This document shows positions 19,077 to 20,530 of a stretch of DNA of 64,000 bases, piece by piece. Each line of letters opens with the position of its first letter. The stretch's first letter is position 1. Origin of the DNA: an uncultured Bdellovibrionales bacterium (GTDB lineage: Bacteria; Patescibacteriota; Minisyncoccia; Moranbacterales; UBA9337); NCBI GenBank assembly GCA_964605525.1, contig CAZSCV010000002.1, positions 69,888 through 133,887 of the forward strand, written 5' to 3'. Below the pieces are notes generated by a model, which saw nothing but the letters and a program-made list of their open reading frames with translations, was not told the origin of the DNA and did no database searches. Both the position numbers and the translations under genes were made by a program.

Positions 19077-19149
19077 GCCACCTTAGCTCAGCTGGTAGAG
19101 CGGCTGTTTTGTAAACAGCGGGTCGTCGGTTCAAGTCCGGCAGGTGGCT
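19077..19149 (+). tRNA. tRNA-Thr (anticodon UGU)
   Basis: Cloverleaf folded by hand: acceptor GCCACCT/AGGTGGC, D arm GCTCAGCTGGTAGAGC, anticodon stem GCTGT/ACAGC with loop TTTGTAA, T arm GTCGGTTCAAGTCCGGC. No encoded CCA. Confidence 0.85.
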
Positions 19150-19176
19150 CAGGGTTGAAAATTGAATAGATAAAAT

Positions 19177-19259
19177 GGGTCGGTGGCAGAGCGGTCAAAT
19201 GCATCAGACTGTAAATCTGACGTCTTCGGACTTCGGGGGTTCGATTCCCTCCCGGCCCA
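19177..19259 (+). tRNA. tRNA-Tyr (anticodon GUA; type II, long variable arm)
   Basis: Acceptor GGGTCGG/CCGGCCC, anticodon loop CTGTAAA, long variable arm CGTCTTCGGACTTCG, T loop TTCGATT. Confidence 0.8.
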
Positions 19260-19359
19260 CTTCGACTTATTGAGTAAATTAGGATCAAGTCGATAGACTA
19301 GTTATGTTTCACAATGGAGTAGATTTTTTATTGTATCTTTTTGTGCTAATATAGTTTAC

Positions 19360-19950
19360 ATGAAGATAACAAAAGAAAAATTAGAACATTATTATTTTGC
19401 AAAAAAAATGTCGGTCAAAGAAATGACTAATGTTTTTATAAGAAGTGAAACATGTATTAGTTATTGGATGAAAAAATATGGAATAAAGAAAAGAACGATA
19501 AGCGAATCTGTATATTTAAAAAATAATCCGAATGGTGATCCATTTAAGATAAGGAAGGATTTAAACAGTGAGTTGACGGAATTAAAAGGAATAGGTATAG
19601 GGTTATATTGGGGTGAGGGAAACAAACGAAATAAAAATTCTATAAAAATTGGGAATACTGACCCAGCGTTAATAAAAAAATTTATAGAATTTTTAGTAAA
19701 AATTTTAGGAGTAAAAAGAAAAAATATACGTTTTTCTTTGCAGGTTTTTAGTGATATGAATTCAGAAAAAGCCAAGAGATATTGGTTAGAAGAATTAAAA
19801 GTTGACCCTGCGCAATTTTCAAAAAAAATAACCATAACTCATTCCGGAAAAGTCGGTAATTATAAAAGAAAAACGCAATACGGTGTTCTCACGATGTATT
19901 ATCACAATACAAAGTTGAGAAATATTTTAATTGCAATGTTGCCGTTGTAG
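19360..19950 (+). CDS. free-standing putative LAGLIDADG-like homing endonuclease (N-terminal HTH-like segment)
   Basis: GIGLYWGEGNK followed by ALIKKFIEFLVKILGV resembles the LAGLIDADG helix plus the following scaffold helix (compare I-CreI LAGFVDGDGS...LDKLVDEIGVG). Sits between two tRNA genes, and its last 10 nt overlap the 5' end of the intron-containing tRNA. Assignment is by motif only. Confidence 0.35.
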   Translation: MKITKEKLEHYYFAKKMSVKEMTNVFIRSETCISYWMKKYGIKKRTISESVYLKNNPNGDPFKIRKDLNSELTELKGIGIGLYWGEGNKRNKNSIKIGNTDPALIKKFIEFLVKILGVKRKNIRFSLQVFSDMNSEKAKRYWLEELKVDPAQFSKKITITHSGKVGNYKRKTQYGVLTMYYHNTKLRNILIAMLPL

Positions 19951-20213
19951 CTCAGTTGGTAGAGCACATCCATGGTAAATTAAAAACTGCCCATTGATTA
20001 GGAAACTTTTCATTGAATCCCGAATAACGGTTAAAGACCTAGCACGAGGTTCAGACCGTGGCGAAATTTTCGCCCGAACGACTGACAAGGGGGACTAAGT
20101 CTTTGGAATACATTGATATGTTCAATATACAGTCTAGTTCTCTTATATAGGTGTTTTAAAAAAAAGAGATAGCAATGAAGGATGAGGTCCGCGGTCCGAT
20201 TCCGCGCAACGGC
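19941..20213 (+). tRNA. tRNA-Thr (anticodon GGU) gene interrupted in the anticodon loop: exon 1 at 19941-19976, exon 2 at 20177-20213
   Basis: Exon 1 is GCCGTTG TA GCTCAGTTGGTAGAGC A CATCC ATGGT. Exon 2 is AA GGATG AGGTC CGCGGTCCGATTCCGCG CAACGGC T. Acceptor stem 7/7 and anticodon stem CATCC/GGATG 5/5. Joined loop is ATGGTAA (U33, A37). Confidence 0.75.
19977..20176 (+). mobile_element. group I-like intron (200 nt) in tRNA-Thr(GGU) anticodon loop, inserted after nt 36
   Basis: 5' exon ends in U and the intron ends in G (omega-G). R-like element CGAACGACUGACA and S-like element AUAUACAGUCUAG can form P7 (GACUG/CAGUC). Size is comparable to the 205-nt Azoarcus tRNA-Ile intron. The P1/IGS pairing is only partly resolved by eye. 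Confidence 0.6.
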
Positions 20214-20256
20214 TCAGAGGAAGGTAAATATGTTAATATGTTAAAATGTAAAATAT

Positions 20257-20418
20257 TATGGCAAAGACAAAGGAAAATCTGGTTAAATTCAAATGCAATG
20301 AGTGCAAAAAAATAACTCATTATTCTAATCGTAACAAAAAGAAATTGAAAGAGAAATTGGAAATGAAAAAATATTGCAAATTCTGCAAAAAGCATACTCT
20401 GCACAAGGAAGCGAAATA
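20257..20418 (+). CDS. rpmG: 50S ribosomal protein L33 (zinc-ribbon type)
   Basis: MAKTKENLVKFKCNECKKITHYSNRNKKKLKEKLEMKKYCKFCKKHTLHKEAK has the CxxC...CxxC L33 signature. Below the ORF-track size cutoff. Confidence 0.85.
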
Positions 20419-20448
20419 ATTTGACAAAAGTCCGCCCTGGCGGACAAA

Positions 20449-20519
20449 GGCGGGTGTCGTACAGTGGCAGTACGTTGGTCTCCAAAACCAATAACGGGAG
20501 TTCGATTCTCTCCACCCGT
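20449..20519 (+). tRNA. tRNA-Trp (anticodon CCA)
   Basis: Acceptor GCGGGTG/CACCCGT (G1.U72), D stem GTAC/GTAC, anticodon stem TTGGT/ACCAA with loop CTCCAAA, T arm GGGAGTTCGATTCTCTC. Preceded by a GTCCGCC-ctg-GCGGAC hairpin. Confidence 0.75.
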
Positions 20520-20530
20520 GCATATCAATT

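What the first reader, a model, noticed from the sequence alone, without database searches (positions are those of the whole stretch)
19360..19950. Free-standing LAGLIDADG-like ORF wedged between tRNA-Tyr and the intron-bearing tRNA-Thr, overlapping the tRNA 5' end
The 196-aa ORF carries GIGLYWGEGNK followed by ALIKKFIEFLVKILGV, which resembles a single LAGLIDADG motif plus its scaffold helix. Its stop codon lies inside the first 10 nt of the tRNA-Thr(GGU) gene. The arrangement tRNA-Thr(UGU), tRNA-Tyr, then tRNA-Thr(GGU) matches the widely conserved thrU-tyrU-(glyT)-thrT order, so the ORF looks like an insertion. A homing endonuclease gene outside but adjacent to a group I intron recalls the collaborative homing seen with free-standing phage HEGs.
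Basis: inference. Interest (0 to 1): 0.55.

Follow-up and report, generated by a model that had tools for sequence, protein, structure and literature searches.

The report
Selfish endonuclease-like gene abutting a tRNA
A 196-residue gene is inserted exactly at the front edge of a threonine tRNA gene in a Patescibacteria (candidate phyla radiation, CPR) genome; it most likely encodes a mobile DNA-cutting protein, it belongs to a large undescribed family that sits in front of many different tRNA genes, and it is not tied to the self-splicing intron in that tRNA.

Summary
The ORF at 19360-19950 is a real, conserved gene. Its TAG stop codon is nucleotides 8-10 of a tRNA-Thr(GGU) gene that carries a 201-nt intron.

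- **Insertion (supported):** related genomes without the ORF have tRNA-Tyr or tRNA-Thr(UGU) 6-62 nt from tRNA-Thr(GGU). Genomes with the ORF have a spacer of about 650-730 nt. Decayed 3' remnants of the ORF also occur.
- **Link to the intron (not supported):** 49 of 89 intron-bearing loci lack the ORF, and 31 of 68 ORF-bearing loci have an intronless tRNA. This argues against collaborative homing and against a maturase role.
- **LAGLIDADG membership (unproven):** the motif and its invariant Glu are present. Profile-profile alignment to canonical HTH-LAGLIDADG enzymes in the same genomic niche gives 96-97% probability, but most of that score comes from the HTH. Pfam and PDB fold searches do not find LAGLIDADG.

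The C-terminal domain defines a large unannotated superfamily (3,490 clusters at 50% identity). All 12 distant members I could check lie directly upstream of a same-strand tRNA gene (Tyr, Trp, Met, Gly, Lys, Gln).

Best reading: a free-standing, homing-endonuclease-type cassette with its own promoter and a leaderless ORF, which targets the 5' flank of tRNA genes.

The parts
19077..19150 (+). tRNA-Thr(UGU), thrU-like; upstream member of the conserved tRNA cluster
   Evidence: ARAGORN; Rfam tRNA, 66.6 bits
19177..19260 (+). tRNA-Tyr(GUA); left neighbour of the inserted cassette
   Evidence: ARAGORN; Rfam tRNA, 59.4 bits. In ORF-less relatives this tRNA lies 6-62 nt from tRNA-Thr(GGU).
19261..19359 (+). 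Left part of the cassette: spacer with a promoter-like element. An extended -10 (TGC-TAATAT, hexamer at 19347-19352) ends 7 nt before the ATG and there is no Shine-Dalgarno sequence, so a leaderless mRNA is inferred.
   Evidence: Read directly from the sequence. The same layout (-35 TTGAC/TTTAC, about 17 nt, -10 TAnAAT/TATAnT, 5-8 nt, ATG) recurs in more than 15 ORF-bearing loci. The generic promoter scan did not list it.
19360..19950 (+). The 196-aa ORF: a putative free-standing homing-endonuclease-like protein
   Evidence: ORF list; 408 homologues; AlphaFold2 model with pLDDT 91.3
19369..19494 (+). N-terminal helix-turn-helix DNA-binding domain (residues about 4-45)
   Evidence: PHROGs 'HNH endonuclease' families 8446 and 7545 match residues 4-52 only. 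Pfam HTH_23/HTH_28 match in about 35 of 64 members. Three helices in the model.
19549..19947 (+). C-terminal domain (residues 64-196) of an unannotated superfamily; LAGLIDADG-like in its first half
   Evidence: 3,490 clusters at 50% identity with E<=1e-3. No Pfam, NCBIfam, PHROGs or PADLOC family. hhalign against canonical LAGLIDADG domain 1 gives P 5e-4 to 1.5e-2.
19594..19626 (+). GIGLYWGEGNK motif. Glu86 (19615-19617) is invariant and aligns with the catalytic Asp of the canonical GDG.
   Evidence: Alignments A1 and A3; hhalign register LYWGEG <-> ILLGDG
19941..19976 (+). tRNA-Thr(GGU) 5' exon (nt 1-36). Its nt 8-10 (19948-19950) are the ORF's stop codon.
   Evidence: ARAGORN in intron mode. 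The overlap is exactly 10 nt in 44 of 60 ORF-bearing metagenome loci.
19977..20177 (+). ORF-less group I-type intron. Internal guide sequence GCC at 19989-19991; P7 at 20080-20084 paired with 20130-20134; terminal guanosine (omegaG) at 20177.
   Evidence: ARAGORN; consensus fold and covariation on 95 homologues; no Rfam hit
20178..20215 (+). tRNA-Thr(GGU) 3' exon. The T-loop reads UCCGAUU, with C at position 55.
   Evidence: ARAGORN; census of T-loop variants

Best explanation
**What it is.** The ORF is the cargo of a compact selfish cassette of about 650 bp: its own promoter, a leaderless ORF, and a stop codon borrowed from tRNA nucleotides U8-A9-G10. The cassette has inserted exactly at the 5' edge of the tRNA-Thr(GGU) gene.

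**The protein.** It has an N-terminal helix-turn-helix and one copy of a divergent, probably LAGLIDADG-derived domain with an invariant Glu at the end of its first helix. I infer that it works as a homodimer.

**Proposed mechanism (inferred, not shown).**
1. The protein recognises an ORF-less allele at or near the 5' part of the tRNA-Thr(GGU) gene.
2. It makes a double-strand break there.
3. Repair from an ORF-bearing copy duplicates the cassette. This is the 'intronless homing' pathway of free-standing homing endonucleases.

**The intron.** The 201-nt group I intron in the same tRNA is a separate, ORF-less ribozyme that comes and goes independently of the cassette.

**What is shown:** the precise and conserved insertion site, presence/absence polymorphism, decay remnants, independence from the intron, the domain architecture, and family-wide association with tRNA 5' flanks.

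**What is inferred:** nuclease activity, dimerisation, the position of the target site, and the homing pathway.
For: **1. Fixed insertion site.** In 44 of 60 ORF-bearing metagenome loci, and in most ORF-bearing GTDB loci, the stop codon is tRNA nt 8-10. This holds whatever lies upstream: tRNA-Tyr, tRNA-Thr(UGU), or opposite-strand tRNAs.

**2. Sporadic presence.** Of 89 intron-bearing GTDB species loci with enough upstream sequence:
- 39 have the ORF, 1 has a partial copy and 49 have none.
- ORF-less loci have the neighbouring tRNA 6-62 nt away; ORF-bearing loci have it about 650-730 nt away.

**3. Degeneration.** 3' remnants of the ORF still abut the tRNA in L036 (59 aa), L067 (about 27 aa) and L021 (about 9 aa).

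**4. Independence from the intron.**
- Among ORF-bearing loci, 37 have the intron and 31 do not.
- 17 of 68 nearest ORF relatives are in the opposite intron state, at up to 82% identity.
- L144 was verified by eye.

**5. Same niche as bona fide homing endonuclease genes.**
- Canonical LAGLIDADG_3 genes (37 bits against a cutoff of 22.5; 490 homologues, the 120 listed all carrying PF14528; named 'LAGLIDADG family homing endonuclease' by NCBI) have the same kind of N-terminal HTH.
- They sit upstream of tRNA-Tyr and run 30-38 nt into it.
- Another such gene ends 10 nt inside tRNA-Asp.

**6. Homology to those enzymes.**
- hhalign gives probability 96.4% (E 1e-9) and 96.9% (E 2e-10), contiguous through HTH, linker, motif helix, beta strand and alpha2, with LYWGEG aligned to ILLGDG.
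- The C-terminal domain alone gives P 5e-4 to 1.5e-2.
- The top Foldseek hits among viral models are LAGLIDADG endonucleases (E 5e-4, probability 0.97-0.99).

**7. Conserved candidate active-site residues.** Glu86, Gly87, Asn99 and Trp142 are invariant, and Lys89, Asp101 and Gln152 are at least 90% conserved, across the orthologues and their paralogues next to other tRNAs.

**8. Single-domain and tandem two-domain forms exist** (P0205, P0209, P0262). This mirrors homodimeric versus monomeric LAGLIDADG enzymes.

**9. Family-wide tRNA association.** All 12 checkable distant relatives lie 0-118 nt upstream of, or overlap, a same-strand tRNA: Tyr, Trp x4, Met x2, Gly x2, Lys, Gln x2.

**10. Own promoter.** A promoter-like element ends 5-8 nt before the ATG in many loci.
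Against: - No nuclease fold is confirmed. Foldseek against the PDB finds no LAGLIDADG structure with either the full model or the domain model; the best hits are OmpA-like and IspF folds at TM 0.3-0.4.
- The predicted topology (alpha-beta-beta-alpha-beta-alpha-beta-beta-alpha) departs from the canonical alpha-beta-beta-alpha-beta-beta-alpha.
- Pfam LAGLIDADG models match below threshold in only 9 of 64 orthologues, and in none of 91 diverse relatives at E<=0.01.
- Most of the hhalign score comes from the HTH.
- Comparison with I-CreI gives nothing.
- The family is well conserved in length and sequence, with few pseudogenes. This also fits a host-beneficial role.
- The tRNA sequence itself does not differ visibly between ORF-bearing and ORF-less alleles, so it is unexplained how the host copy would avoid cleavage.
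- No cleavage or transfer has been shown, and how DNA would move between these cells for homing is unknown.
Confidence: 0.6

Rival explanations
1. Collaborative (trans) homing partner or splicing helper of the tRNA-Thr intron. In this model the protein cuts intronless tRNA-Thr(GGU) at the intron insertion site, so that the ORF and the ORF-less intron spread together. Alternatively it acts as a maturase for the intron.
For: - In the window the ORF lies 27 nt upstream of the intron insertion site.
- 37 of 68 ORF-bearing loci do carry the intron.
- The anticodon stem-loop DNA is a natural pseudo-palindrome that would suit a homodimeric enzyme (inference).
- Collaborative homing is an established pathway in phages (PMC3984707).
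Against: - 31 of 68 ORF-bearing loci have an intact intronless tRNA-Thr(GGU), which the enzyme would then cut in its own genome.
- 49 of 89 intron-bearing loci have no ORF, so splicing does not need it.
- Closely related ORFs (80-82% identity) occur in both intron states.
- Paralogues sit before intronless tRNAs: Trp, Met, Gly, Lys and Gln.
Confidence: 0.07
2. A domesticated or host-beneficial DNA-binding protein, descended from a homing endonuclease. In this model it binds the tRNA gene region without cutting, for example to regulate or supply transcription of the downstream tRNA, or to protect the site.
For: - Strong conservation of length and sequence across deep Patescibacteria lineages, with 60% mean column identity.
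- The cassette brings a promoter that reads into the tRNA.
- The HTH is the only confidently classified domain.
- No nuclease fold is confirmed.
Against: - Absence from about half of otherwise similar loci shows it is dispensable.
- Decayed remnants exist.
- Canonical, presumably active LAGLIDADG genes occupy the same position at other tRNAs.
- The Glu at the position of the catalytic acid is at least 90% conserved in 91 diverse relatives. Non-cutting LAGLIDADG derivatives commonly lose this residue (established knowledge of maturases).
Confidence: 0.17
3. A mobile element that inserts by a chemistry other than break-and-repair homing, that is, a new site-specific recombinase- or transposase-like protein aimed at the 5' ends of tRNA genes.
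For: - tRNA genes are classic targets of integrating elements (established knowledge).
- In one locus (L029) an exact 25-nt copy of tRNA nt 1-25 flanks the left side of the cassette, like an att-type duplication.
- The C-terminal domain has no assigned fold.
- Weak IS630-type NCBIfam hits occur, through the HTH.
Against: - The duplication is unique among about 115 ORF-bearing loci.
- No terminal repeats and no DDE, tyrosine-recombinase or serine-recombinase signatures were found.
- The contiguous homology to HTH-LAGLIDADG enzymes points to a homing endonuclease origin.
Confidence: 0.08

Closest known systems
Free-standing homing endonucleases of T-even phages, especially SegB in the T4 tRNA gene cluster (PMC2330249)
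   Same: - An intergenic endonuclease gene lying among tRNA genes.
- Present in some genomes and absent from close relatives.
- The conserved tRNA gene sequence serves as the target: SegB recognises the TpsiC stem-loop motif.
- It spreads together with flanking DNA ('intronless homing').
   Different: - SegB is a GIY-YIG enzyme in a phage; this ORF is in cellular Patescibacteria genomes and has an HTH plus a LAGLIDADG-like domain.
- This ORF is fused to the tRNA 5' edge with an overlapping stop codon.
- The family is spread over many tRNA identities.
- No activity has been shown here.
Homodimeric single-motif LAGLIDADG homing endonucleases (the I-CreI type) and the HTH plus two-motif LAGLIDADG_3 genes of CPR bacteria found here upstream of tRNA-Tyr
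   Same: - A motif helix rich in Gly that ends in an acidic residue followed by Gly.
- A short beta hairpin and then an amphipathic helix, in the same register.
- An N-terminal HTH and linker homologous to the CPR LAGLIDADG_3 genes (hhalign 96-97%).
- Both single-domain and tandem-domain forms exist.
   Different: - No Pfam LAGLIDADG match at threshold.
- The second half of the domain has a different predicted topology (an extra helix between beta3 and the last hairpin).
- No structural match in the PDB.
- A conserved Lys three residues after the Glu and an N(S/T)D motif are not classical LAGLIDADG features.
Collaborative homing pairs: the phage Aeh1 mobE/nrdA intron and the cyanophage F-CphI/psbA intron (reviewed in PMC3984707)
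   Same: [quoted passage not shown]
   Different: Here the two elements are distributed independently, so the intron is not the protection or partner that defines collaborative homing.
Bacterial tRNA anticodon-loop group I introns: Azoarcus tRNA-Ile, and cyanobacterial tRNA-Leu(UAA) and tRNA-fMet
   Same: - About 200 nt long and ORF-less.
- Inserted in the anticodon loop, 3' of the anticodon.
- Short P1 formed with the anticodon.
- GAAA-capped P2, a compact P4-P6 region, a P3/P7 pseudoknot and a terminal guanosine.
   Different: - The host tRNA is tRNA-Thr(GGU).
- The lineage is Patescibacteria.
- No Rfam model detects it.
- I found no paper describing it; the searchable library mentions CPR tRNA introns only in passing (PMC8172020).

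Membership tests
LAGLIDADG homing endonucleases | Motif helix ending in a conserved acidic residue (the D/E of 'GDG') | tested here: met
   GIGLYWGEGNK is present. Glu86 and Gly87 are invariant in 64 orthologues and in paralogues, and at least 90% conserved in 91 diverse relatives. The register matches ILLGDG in hhalign.
LAGLIDADG homing endonucleases | Significant match to Pfam LAGLIDADG_1, _2 or _3 | tested here: not met
   No hit for the window protein. LAGLIDADG_3 matches below threshold in 9 of 64 orthologues, best E 0.0055. It is not among the listed families for 91 relatives at E<=0.01.
LAGLIDADG homing endonucleases | alpha-beta-beta-alpha-beta-beta-alpha core fold | tested here: inconclusive
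   The AlphaFold2 model (pLDDT 91) has alpha-beta-beta-alpha-beta-alpha-beta-beta-alpha. Foldseek against the PDB gives no LAGLIDADG hit with E<=1e-3; an intein endonuclease ranks 44th. Foldseek against viral models (BFVD) has LAGLIDADG endonucleases as top hits, E 5e-4, but TM is only 0.27-0.45.
LAGLIDADG homing endonucleases | Profile-level homology to bona fide members | tested here: inconclusive
   Full-length comparison gives probability 96.4-96.9%, E 1e-9 to 2e-10. The C-terminal domain alone gives P 5e-4 to 1.5e-2, probability 3-30%. I-CreI gives nothing.
LAGLIDADG homing endonucleases | Site-specific cleavage of double-stranded DNA leaving 4-nt 3' overhangs | not testable with these tools
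   Needs purified protein and substrate DNA.
Free-standing homing endonuclease genes (intronless homing) | Sporadic presence at one fixed intergenic site between conserved genes | tested here: met
   39 loci with the ORF, 49 without and 1 partial among 89 loci. The right junction is fixed at the tRNA 5' end.
Free-standing homing endonuclease genes (intronless homing) | Degenerate copies, as expected from a gain-decay-loss cycle | tested here: met
   Remnants in L036, L067 and L021.
Free-standing homing endonuclease genes (intronless homing) | The enzyme cleaves the gene-less allele near the insertion site | not testable with these tools
   The only lead is a 25-nt duplication of the tRNA 5' end in L029, which suggests a break near tRNA nt 25/26.
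Collaborative (trans) homing pair | The endonuclease gene co-occurs with the intron, which interrupts its target site | tested here: not met
   31 of 68 ORF-bearing loci are intronless, and 49 of 89 intron-bearing loci lack the ORF.
Intron-encoded endonuclease or maturase | The ORF lies inside the intron | tested here: not met
   The ORF ends 27 nt before the 5' splice site. The introns are 182-261 nt long and hold no ORF.
Group I intron (tRNA anticodon-loop type, IC3-like) | The 5' exon ends in U paired with G of the guide sequence, the intron ends in G, and P1-P9 helices with a P3/P7 pseudoknot are supported by covariation | tested here: met
   96 of 96 introns follow GGU and end in G. 49 pairs are 96.8% paired, 26 show compensatory changes, and 0 of 500 shuffles reach that.
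Group I intron (tRNA anticodon-loop type, IC3-like) | Match to an Rfam group I intron model | tested here: not met
   No hit at E<=10 on 301 nt, nor at gathering score on the whole window.
Group I intron (tRNA anticodon-loop type, IC3-like) | Self-splicing in vitro | not testable with these tools
   Needs transcription and splicing assays, or RNA-seq.

The most novel reading that the evidence does not exclude
The ORF represents a very large, so far undescribed family of tRNA-gene-targeting homing endonucleases. They would be either a strongly diverged LAGLIDADG offshoot or a new nuclease domain. Each subfamily colonises the 5' edge of a particular tRNA gene (Thr, Tyr, Trp, Met, Gly, Lys, Gln) in Patescibacteria and also in high-GC bacteria. 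Members often use the tRNA's own U8-A9-G10 as their stop codon, so RNase P processing of the tRNA would strip the stop codon from the mRNA and limit expression of the protein.
Probability: 0.45. Interest if true: 0.8.

Novelty: new variant of a known kind. Interest (0 to 1): 0.68.

Why it matters
- **A new class of selfish element in cellular genomes.** If the protein is an active endonuclease, this is a widespread class living at the 5' edge of tRNA genes in ultra-small bacteria and beyond. Its DNA-cutting domain is missed by current family libraries. Its natural targets are among the most conserved sequences in biology.
- **Annotation.** It would give a name to thousands of 'hypothetical proteins'. 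It would also explain why tRNA-Thr(GGU) goes undetected in many Patescibacteria genomes: standard tRNA finders and Rfam both miss the intron-bearing gene, which affects completeness estimates.
- **Tools.** It would add a set of compact, sequence-specific enzymes with single-domain and tandem-domain forms.
- **A testable regulatory idea.** The stop codon lies inside the tRNA, so tRNA 5' processing and translation of the selfish gene compete on one transcript.

Tried and rejected
**Searches that gave nothing useful for the C-terminal domain**
- Rfam, for the intron: no group I hit at any threshold. I replaced this with hand folding plus covariation analysis.
- phmmer and hmmsearch against PDB sequences with the protein, the orthologue profile and a superfamily profile: only HTH proteins and noise.
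- Pfam, NCBIfam, PHROGs and PADLOC: no hit for the C-terminal domain.
- tblastn against 50,697 phage records: no match.
- hhalign against I-CreI and against a two-motif LAGLIDADG found next to tRNA-Asp: no signal.

**Structure**
- A second structure prediction, of the C-terminal domain alone, was worse (pLDDT 75.7; the motif helix scored below 50) and gave the same non-LAGLIDADG PDB hits.

**Alternative domain assignments considered and rejected**
- GIY-YIG ('GLY...(12)...(K/R)(I/L)G'): rejected because the segment is a confident helix and the family lacks the conserved Arg/Glu pattern of GIY-YIG enzymes.
- PD-(D/E)xK: rejected because the order and spacing of acidic and Lys residues do not fit.

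**Other checks**
- A search for target-site duplications or partial tRNA copies at the left end of the cassette found only one case (L029) in about 115 loci.
- Comparing tRNA exon sequences between ORF-bearing and ORF-less alleles showed no diagnostic difference.
- Literature searches for this ORF family, or for a tRNA-Thr intron in CPR bacteria, found only passing remarks.
Full report
**1. The observation**

The window holds tRNA-Thr(UGU) at 19077-19150 and tRNA-Tyr at 19177-19260, followed by a 196-aa ORF at 19360-19950. ARAGORN run with introns allowed finds tRNA-Thr(GGU) at 19941-20215. Its 201-nt intron lies between positions 36 and 37, at 19977-20177.

The ORF's TAG stop codon (19948-19950) is tRNA nucleotides U8-A9-G10, so the two genes overlap by 10 nt. 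rpmG (20258-20419) and tRNA-Trp (20450-20521) follow. Their description is therefore accurate.

**2. The ORF is a real gene in a conserved position**

A search of 5.8 billion proteins gives 408 relatives with E<=1e-3. Nearly all are 194-198 aa, come from Patescibacteria (Moranbacteria, Yanofskybacteria and others), and are labelled hypothetical. Sixty-four of them align with 60% mean column identity.

In three independently retrieved genomes the gene sits in the same place, including one whose protein is only 51% identical. In each it lies just upstream of an intron-bearing tRNA-Thr(GGU), which is followed by rpmG and tRNA-Trp.

**3. The intron is genuine, although Rfam misses it**

Rfam gives no group I hit even at E<=10. 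A conserved 20-mer from the intron core retrieved 107 loci from species-representative genomes.

- In all 96 loci that could be parsed, the host is tRNA-Thr(GGU), the 5' exon ends in GGU and the insert ends in G.
- Insert lengths are 182-261 nt, with no internal ORF.
- An alignment of 95 sequences folds into the following helices:

| Helix | Feature |
|---|---|
| P1 | the anticodon GGU paired with an invariant GCC |
| P2 | GAAA-capped hairpin |
| P4, P5, P6 | compact domain |
| P7 | GACUG paired with CAGUC |
| P8, P9 | present |
| P3/P7 | pseudoknot |

- Of 49 pairs, 96.8% of cells are paired and 26 pairs show compensatory changes. None of 500 shuffles reaches these values, and shifted registers collapse to 32-50% paired.

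This is an ORF-less anticodon-loop group I intron of the Azoarcus/cyanobacterial style.

**4. The ORF is an insertion, and it is independent of the intron**

Results from intron-selected loci (89 with enough upstream sequence):
- 39 have the ORF, one has a partial copy and 49 have none.
- Where the ORF is absent, the neighbouring tRNA-Tyr or tRNA-Thr(UGU) is 6-62 nt from tRNA-Thr(GGU).
- Where it is present, the gap is about 650-730 nt.
- Three ORF-less loci keep decayed 3' ends of the ORF next to the tRNA: 59, about 27 and about 9 codons.

Results from ORF-selected loci (80 metagenome loci found through the protein):
- The downstream tRNA-Thr(GGU) has the intron in 37 and is intact and intronless in 31 (L144 read by eye).
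- The 10-nt overlap is exact in 44 of 60 loci.
- Seventeen of 68 ORFs have their nearest relative in the opposite intron state, at up to 82% identity.

The ORF is therefore tied to the 5' edge of the tRNA gene and not to the intron. This removes the defining feature of collaborative homing and excludes a required splicing role.

**5. What the protein is**

*N-terminal domain.* Residues about 4-45 form a helix-turn-helix. They match the HTH modules of phage 'HNH endonuclease' PHROGs and Pfam HTH_23/HTH_28.

*C-terminal domain.* Residues 64-196 match nothing in Pfam, NCBIfam, PHROGs, PADLOC or PDB sequences.

*Predicted structure.* An AlphaFold2 model is confident (pLDDT 91.3). It shows a long Gly-rich helix ending in the invariant Glu86, a short hairpin, a helix, a strand, a helix, two strands and a final helix.
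- Foldseek against the PDB returns no LAGLIDADG structure; the best hits are OmpA-like and IspF folds at TM 0.3-0.4.
- Foldseek against viral models puts LAGLIDADG endonucleases on top, but weakly (E 5e-4, TM 0.27-0.45).

*Profile comparison.* The most informative test used canonical enzymes found in the fetched loci themselves: HTH plus two-motif LAGLIDADG_3 genes. They pass Pfam's threshold, have 490 homologues (the 120 listed all carrying PF14528) and are named LAGLIDADG homing endonucleases by NCBI. They lie upstream of tRNA-Tyr.
- Profile-profile alignment of the ORF family with them gives 96.4% and 96.9% probability (E 1e-9 and 2e-10).
- The alignment is contiguous from the HTH through the linker, the motif helix (LYWGEG on ILLGDG), the next strand and helix alpha2.
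- With the HTH removed, the signal drops to P 5e-4 to 1.5e-2.

I conclude that the domain is probably derived from LAGLIDADG (about two chances in three) but fails several membership tests, so I do not file it as a member.

**6. A large family that lives in front of tRNA genes**

A profile of the C-terminal domain alone finds 3,490 cluster representatives (50% identity) at E<=1e-3, and 1,198 at E<=1e-10. Some carry two tandem copies of the domain (P0205, P0209, P0262). This parallels the homodimer/monomer split among LAGLIDADG enzymes.

Every distant relative whose downstream DNA was available lies directly upstream of a same-strand tRNA:

| tRNA | Relation of the ORF end to the tRNA start |
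|---|---|
| tRNA-Tyr | 3-nt gap |
| tRNA-Trp (four cases) | three overlap by 10-11 nt, the stop again being tRNA nt 8-10; the fourth ORF frame runs on through the tRNA |
| tRNA-Met (two cases) | 24- and 40-nt gaps |
| tRNA-Gly(GCC) (two cases) | 2-nt gap; 15-nt overlap |
| tRNA-Lys | 20-nt gap |
| tRNA-Gln (two cases, both tandem-domain proteins) | 39- and 118-nt gaps |

That is 12 of 12. As a rough estimate, only about 4% of genes in such genomes precede a tRNA. Other nuclease genes occupy the same niche: a two-motif LAGLIDADG ends 10 nt inside tRNA-Asp, and a PDDEXK_5 protein lies before tRNA-Tyr in L001.

**7. Cassette anatomy**

In more than 15 ORF-bearing loci a promoter-like pair of boxes ends 5-8 nt before the ATG, and there is no ribosome-binding site. 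In the window the -10 box is TGC-TAATAT, with the hexamer at 19347-19352. This suggests a leaderless mRNA made from the cassette's own promoter, which would also read into the tRNA.

Because the stop codon lies inside the tRNA, RNase P cleavage at tRNA position 1 would leave the mRNA without a stop codon. I therefore suggest that expression is self-limiting. This is inference only.

**8. Mechanism proposed**

The best-supported model is a free-standing homing-endonuclease-type element (confidence 0.6). The HTH and a dimer of the C-terminal domain would recognise the tRNA-Thr(GGU) 5' region in ORF-less genomes and cut it. Repair from an ORF-bearing copy would then install the cassette. This is the 'intronless homing' pathway reviewed in PMC3984707.

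The closest experimental precedent is T4 SegB, a free-standing endonuclease in a tRNA cluster that recognises a tRNA gene motif (PMC2330249). One locus (L029) has an exact copy of tRNA nt 1-25 at the left end of the cassette, which hints at a break near nt 25/26. It is a single case.

The rivals are a domesticated DNA binder (0.17), a different insertion chemistry (0.08) and the intron-linked model (0.07).

**9. Novelty**

- The searchable literature mentions group I introns in CPR tRNAs only in passing (PMC8172020).
- It describes LAGLIDADG genes in CPR rRNA introns.
- I found nothing on this ORF family, on a tRNA-Thr(GGU) intron, or on endonuclease-like genes fused to tRNA 5' ends in cellular genomes. 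Subscription-only papers were not searchable.

I rate the finding as a new variant of a known kind: a free-standing homing endonuclease gene with an unclassified, probably LAGLIDADG-derived domain, in a new and systematic genomic niche.

Noticed in passing
window 19977-20177; loci L007-L113: A conserved ORF-less group I intron in tRNA-Thr(GGU) occurs in at least 107 species-representative genomes. Rfam and default ARAGORN both miss it, so this tRNA is likely under-called in Patescibacteria genome annotations.
   Followed up: yes
L194 505-1253; L198 1001-1789; L201 1001-1747; L196 1001-2631; L195 1501-3019; L069, L076, L020, L134, L017, L048, L114: Distant relatives of the ORF's C-terminal domain lie immediately upstream of other tRNA genes (Gly, Lys, Gln, Trp, Met, Tyr), often with the stop codon inside the tRNA. 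Some are tandem two-domain proteins from high-GC genomes with TetR and GlmU-like genes as neighbours.
   Followed up: partly
L088, L058, L087, L099, L100, L102 (upstream of tRNA-Tyr); L063 (upstream of tRNA-Asp); L001 3405-3803: Canonical two-motif LAGLIDADG_3 genes with an N-terminal HTH run 30-38 nt into tRNA-Tyr. Another ends 10 nt inside tRNA-Asp. A PDDEXK_5 protein lies between tRNA-Thr(UGU) and tRNA-Tyr in L001. The 5' flanks of tRNA genes look like a general landing site for nuclease genes in these genomes.
   Followed up: partly
L029 (oriented so that the intron is on the + strand): about 710 nt upstream of tRNA-Thr(GGU): An exact 25-nt copy of tRNA-Thr(GGU) nt 1-25 lies 63 nt before the ORF start, with no complete tRNA there. 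It may be the footprint of an illegitimate insertion with a break near tRNA nt 25/26. It is unique among about 115 ORF-bearing loci.
   Followed up: partly
L005 3636-3920; also L006 and L022: tRNA-Tyr(GUA) also carries an insert of about 200 nt with group I features in its anticodon loop in some genomes. It shows classic R/S-like elements (GUAGAGACUAGA, AAGAUAUAGUCC) that differ from those of the tRNA-Thr intron.
   Followed up: no
window 20195-20201: The T-loop of the window's tRNA-Thr(GGU) reads UCCGAUU, with C at the normally invariant U55 (pseudouridine) position. Among 167 tRNA-Thr(GGU) genes in the fetched loci, 11 have C55 and 6 have G55, so this is a lineage variant and not a sequencing error.
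   Followed up: partly
window 19344-19362 and the equivalent positions in L001, L002, L009, L018, L043, L088, L097, L101, L108: The -10-like box ends 5-8 nt before the ORF's ATG and there is no Shine-Dalgarno sequence. This suggests a leaderless mRNA from a promoter carried by the cassette, which would also transcribe the downstream tRNA.
   Followed up: partly
L064 (NZ_JMIY01000006.1); also L029, L051, L054, L070, L075, L107 and others: The intron-bearing bacterial tRNA-Thr(GGU) locus also appears on contigs labelled Candidatus Methanoperedens (RefSeq), Gammaproteobacteria, delta proteobacterium and Bacteroidetes. These are probably mis-binned or mislabelled Patescibacteria contigs.
   Followed up: no
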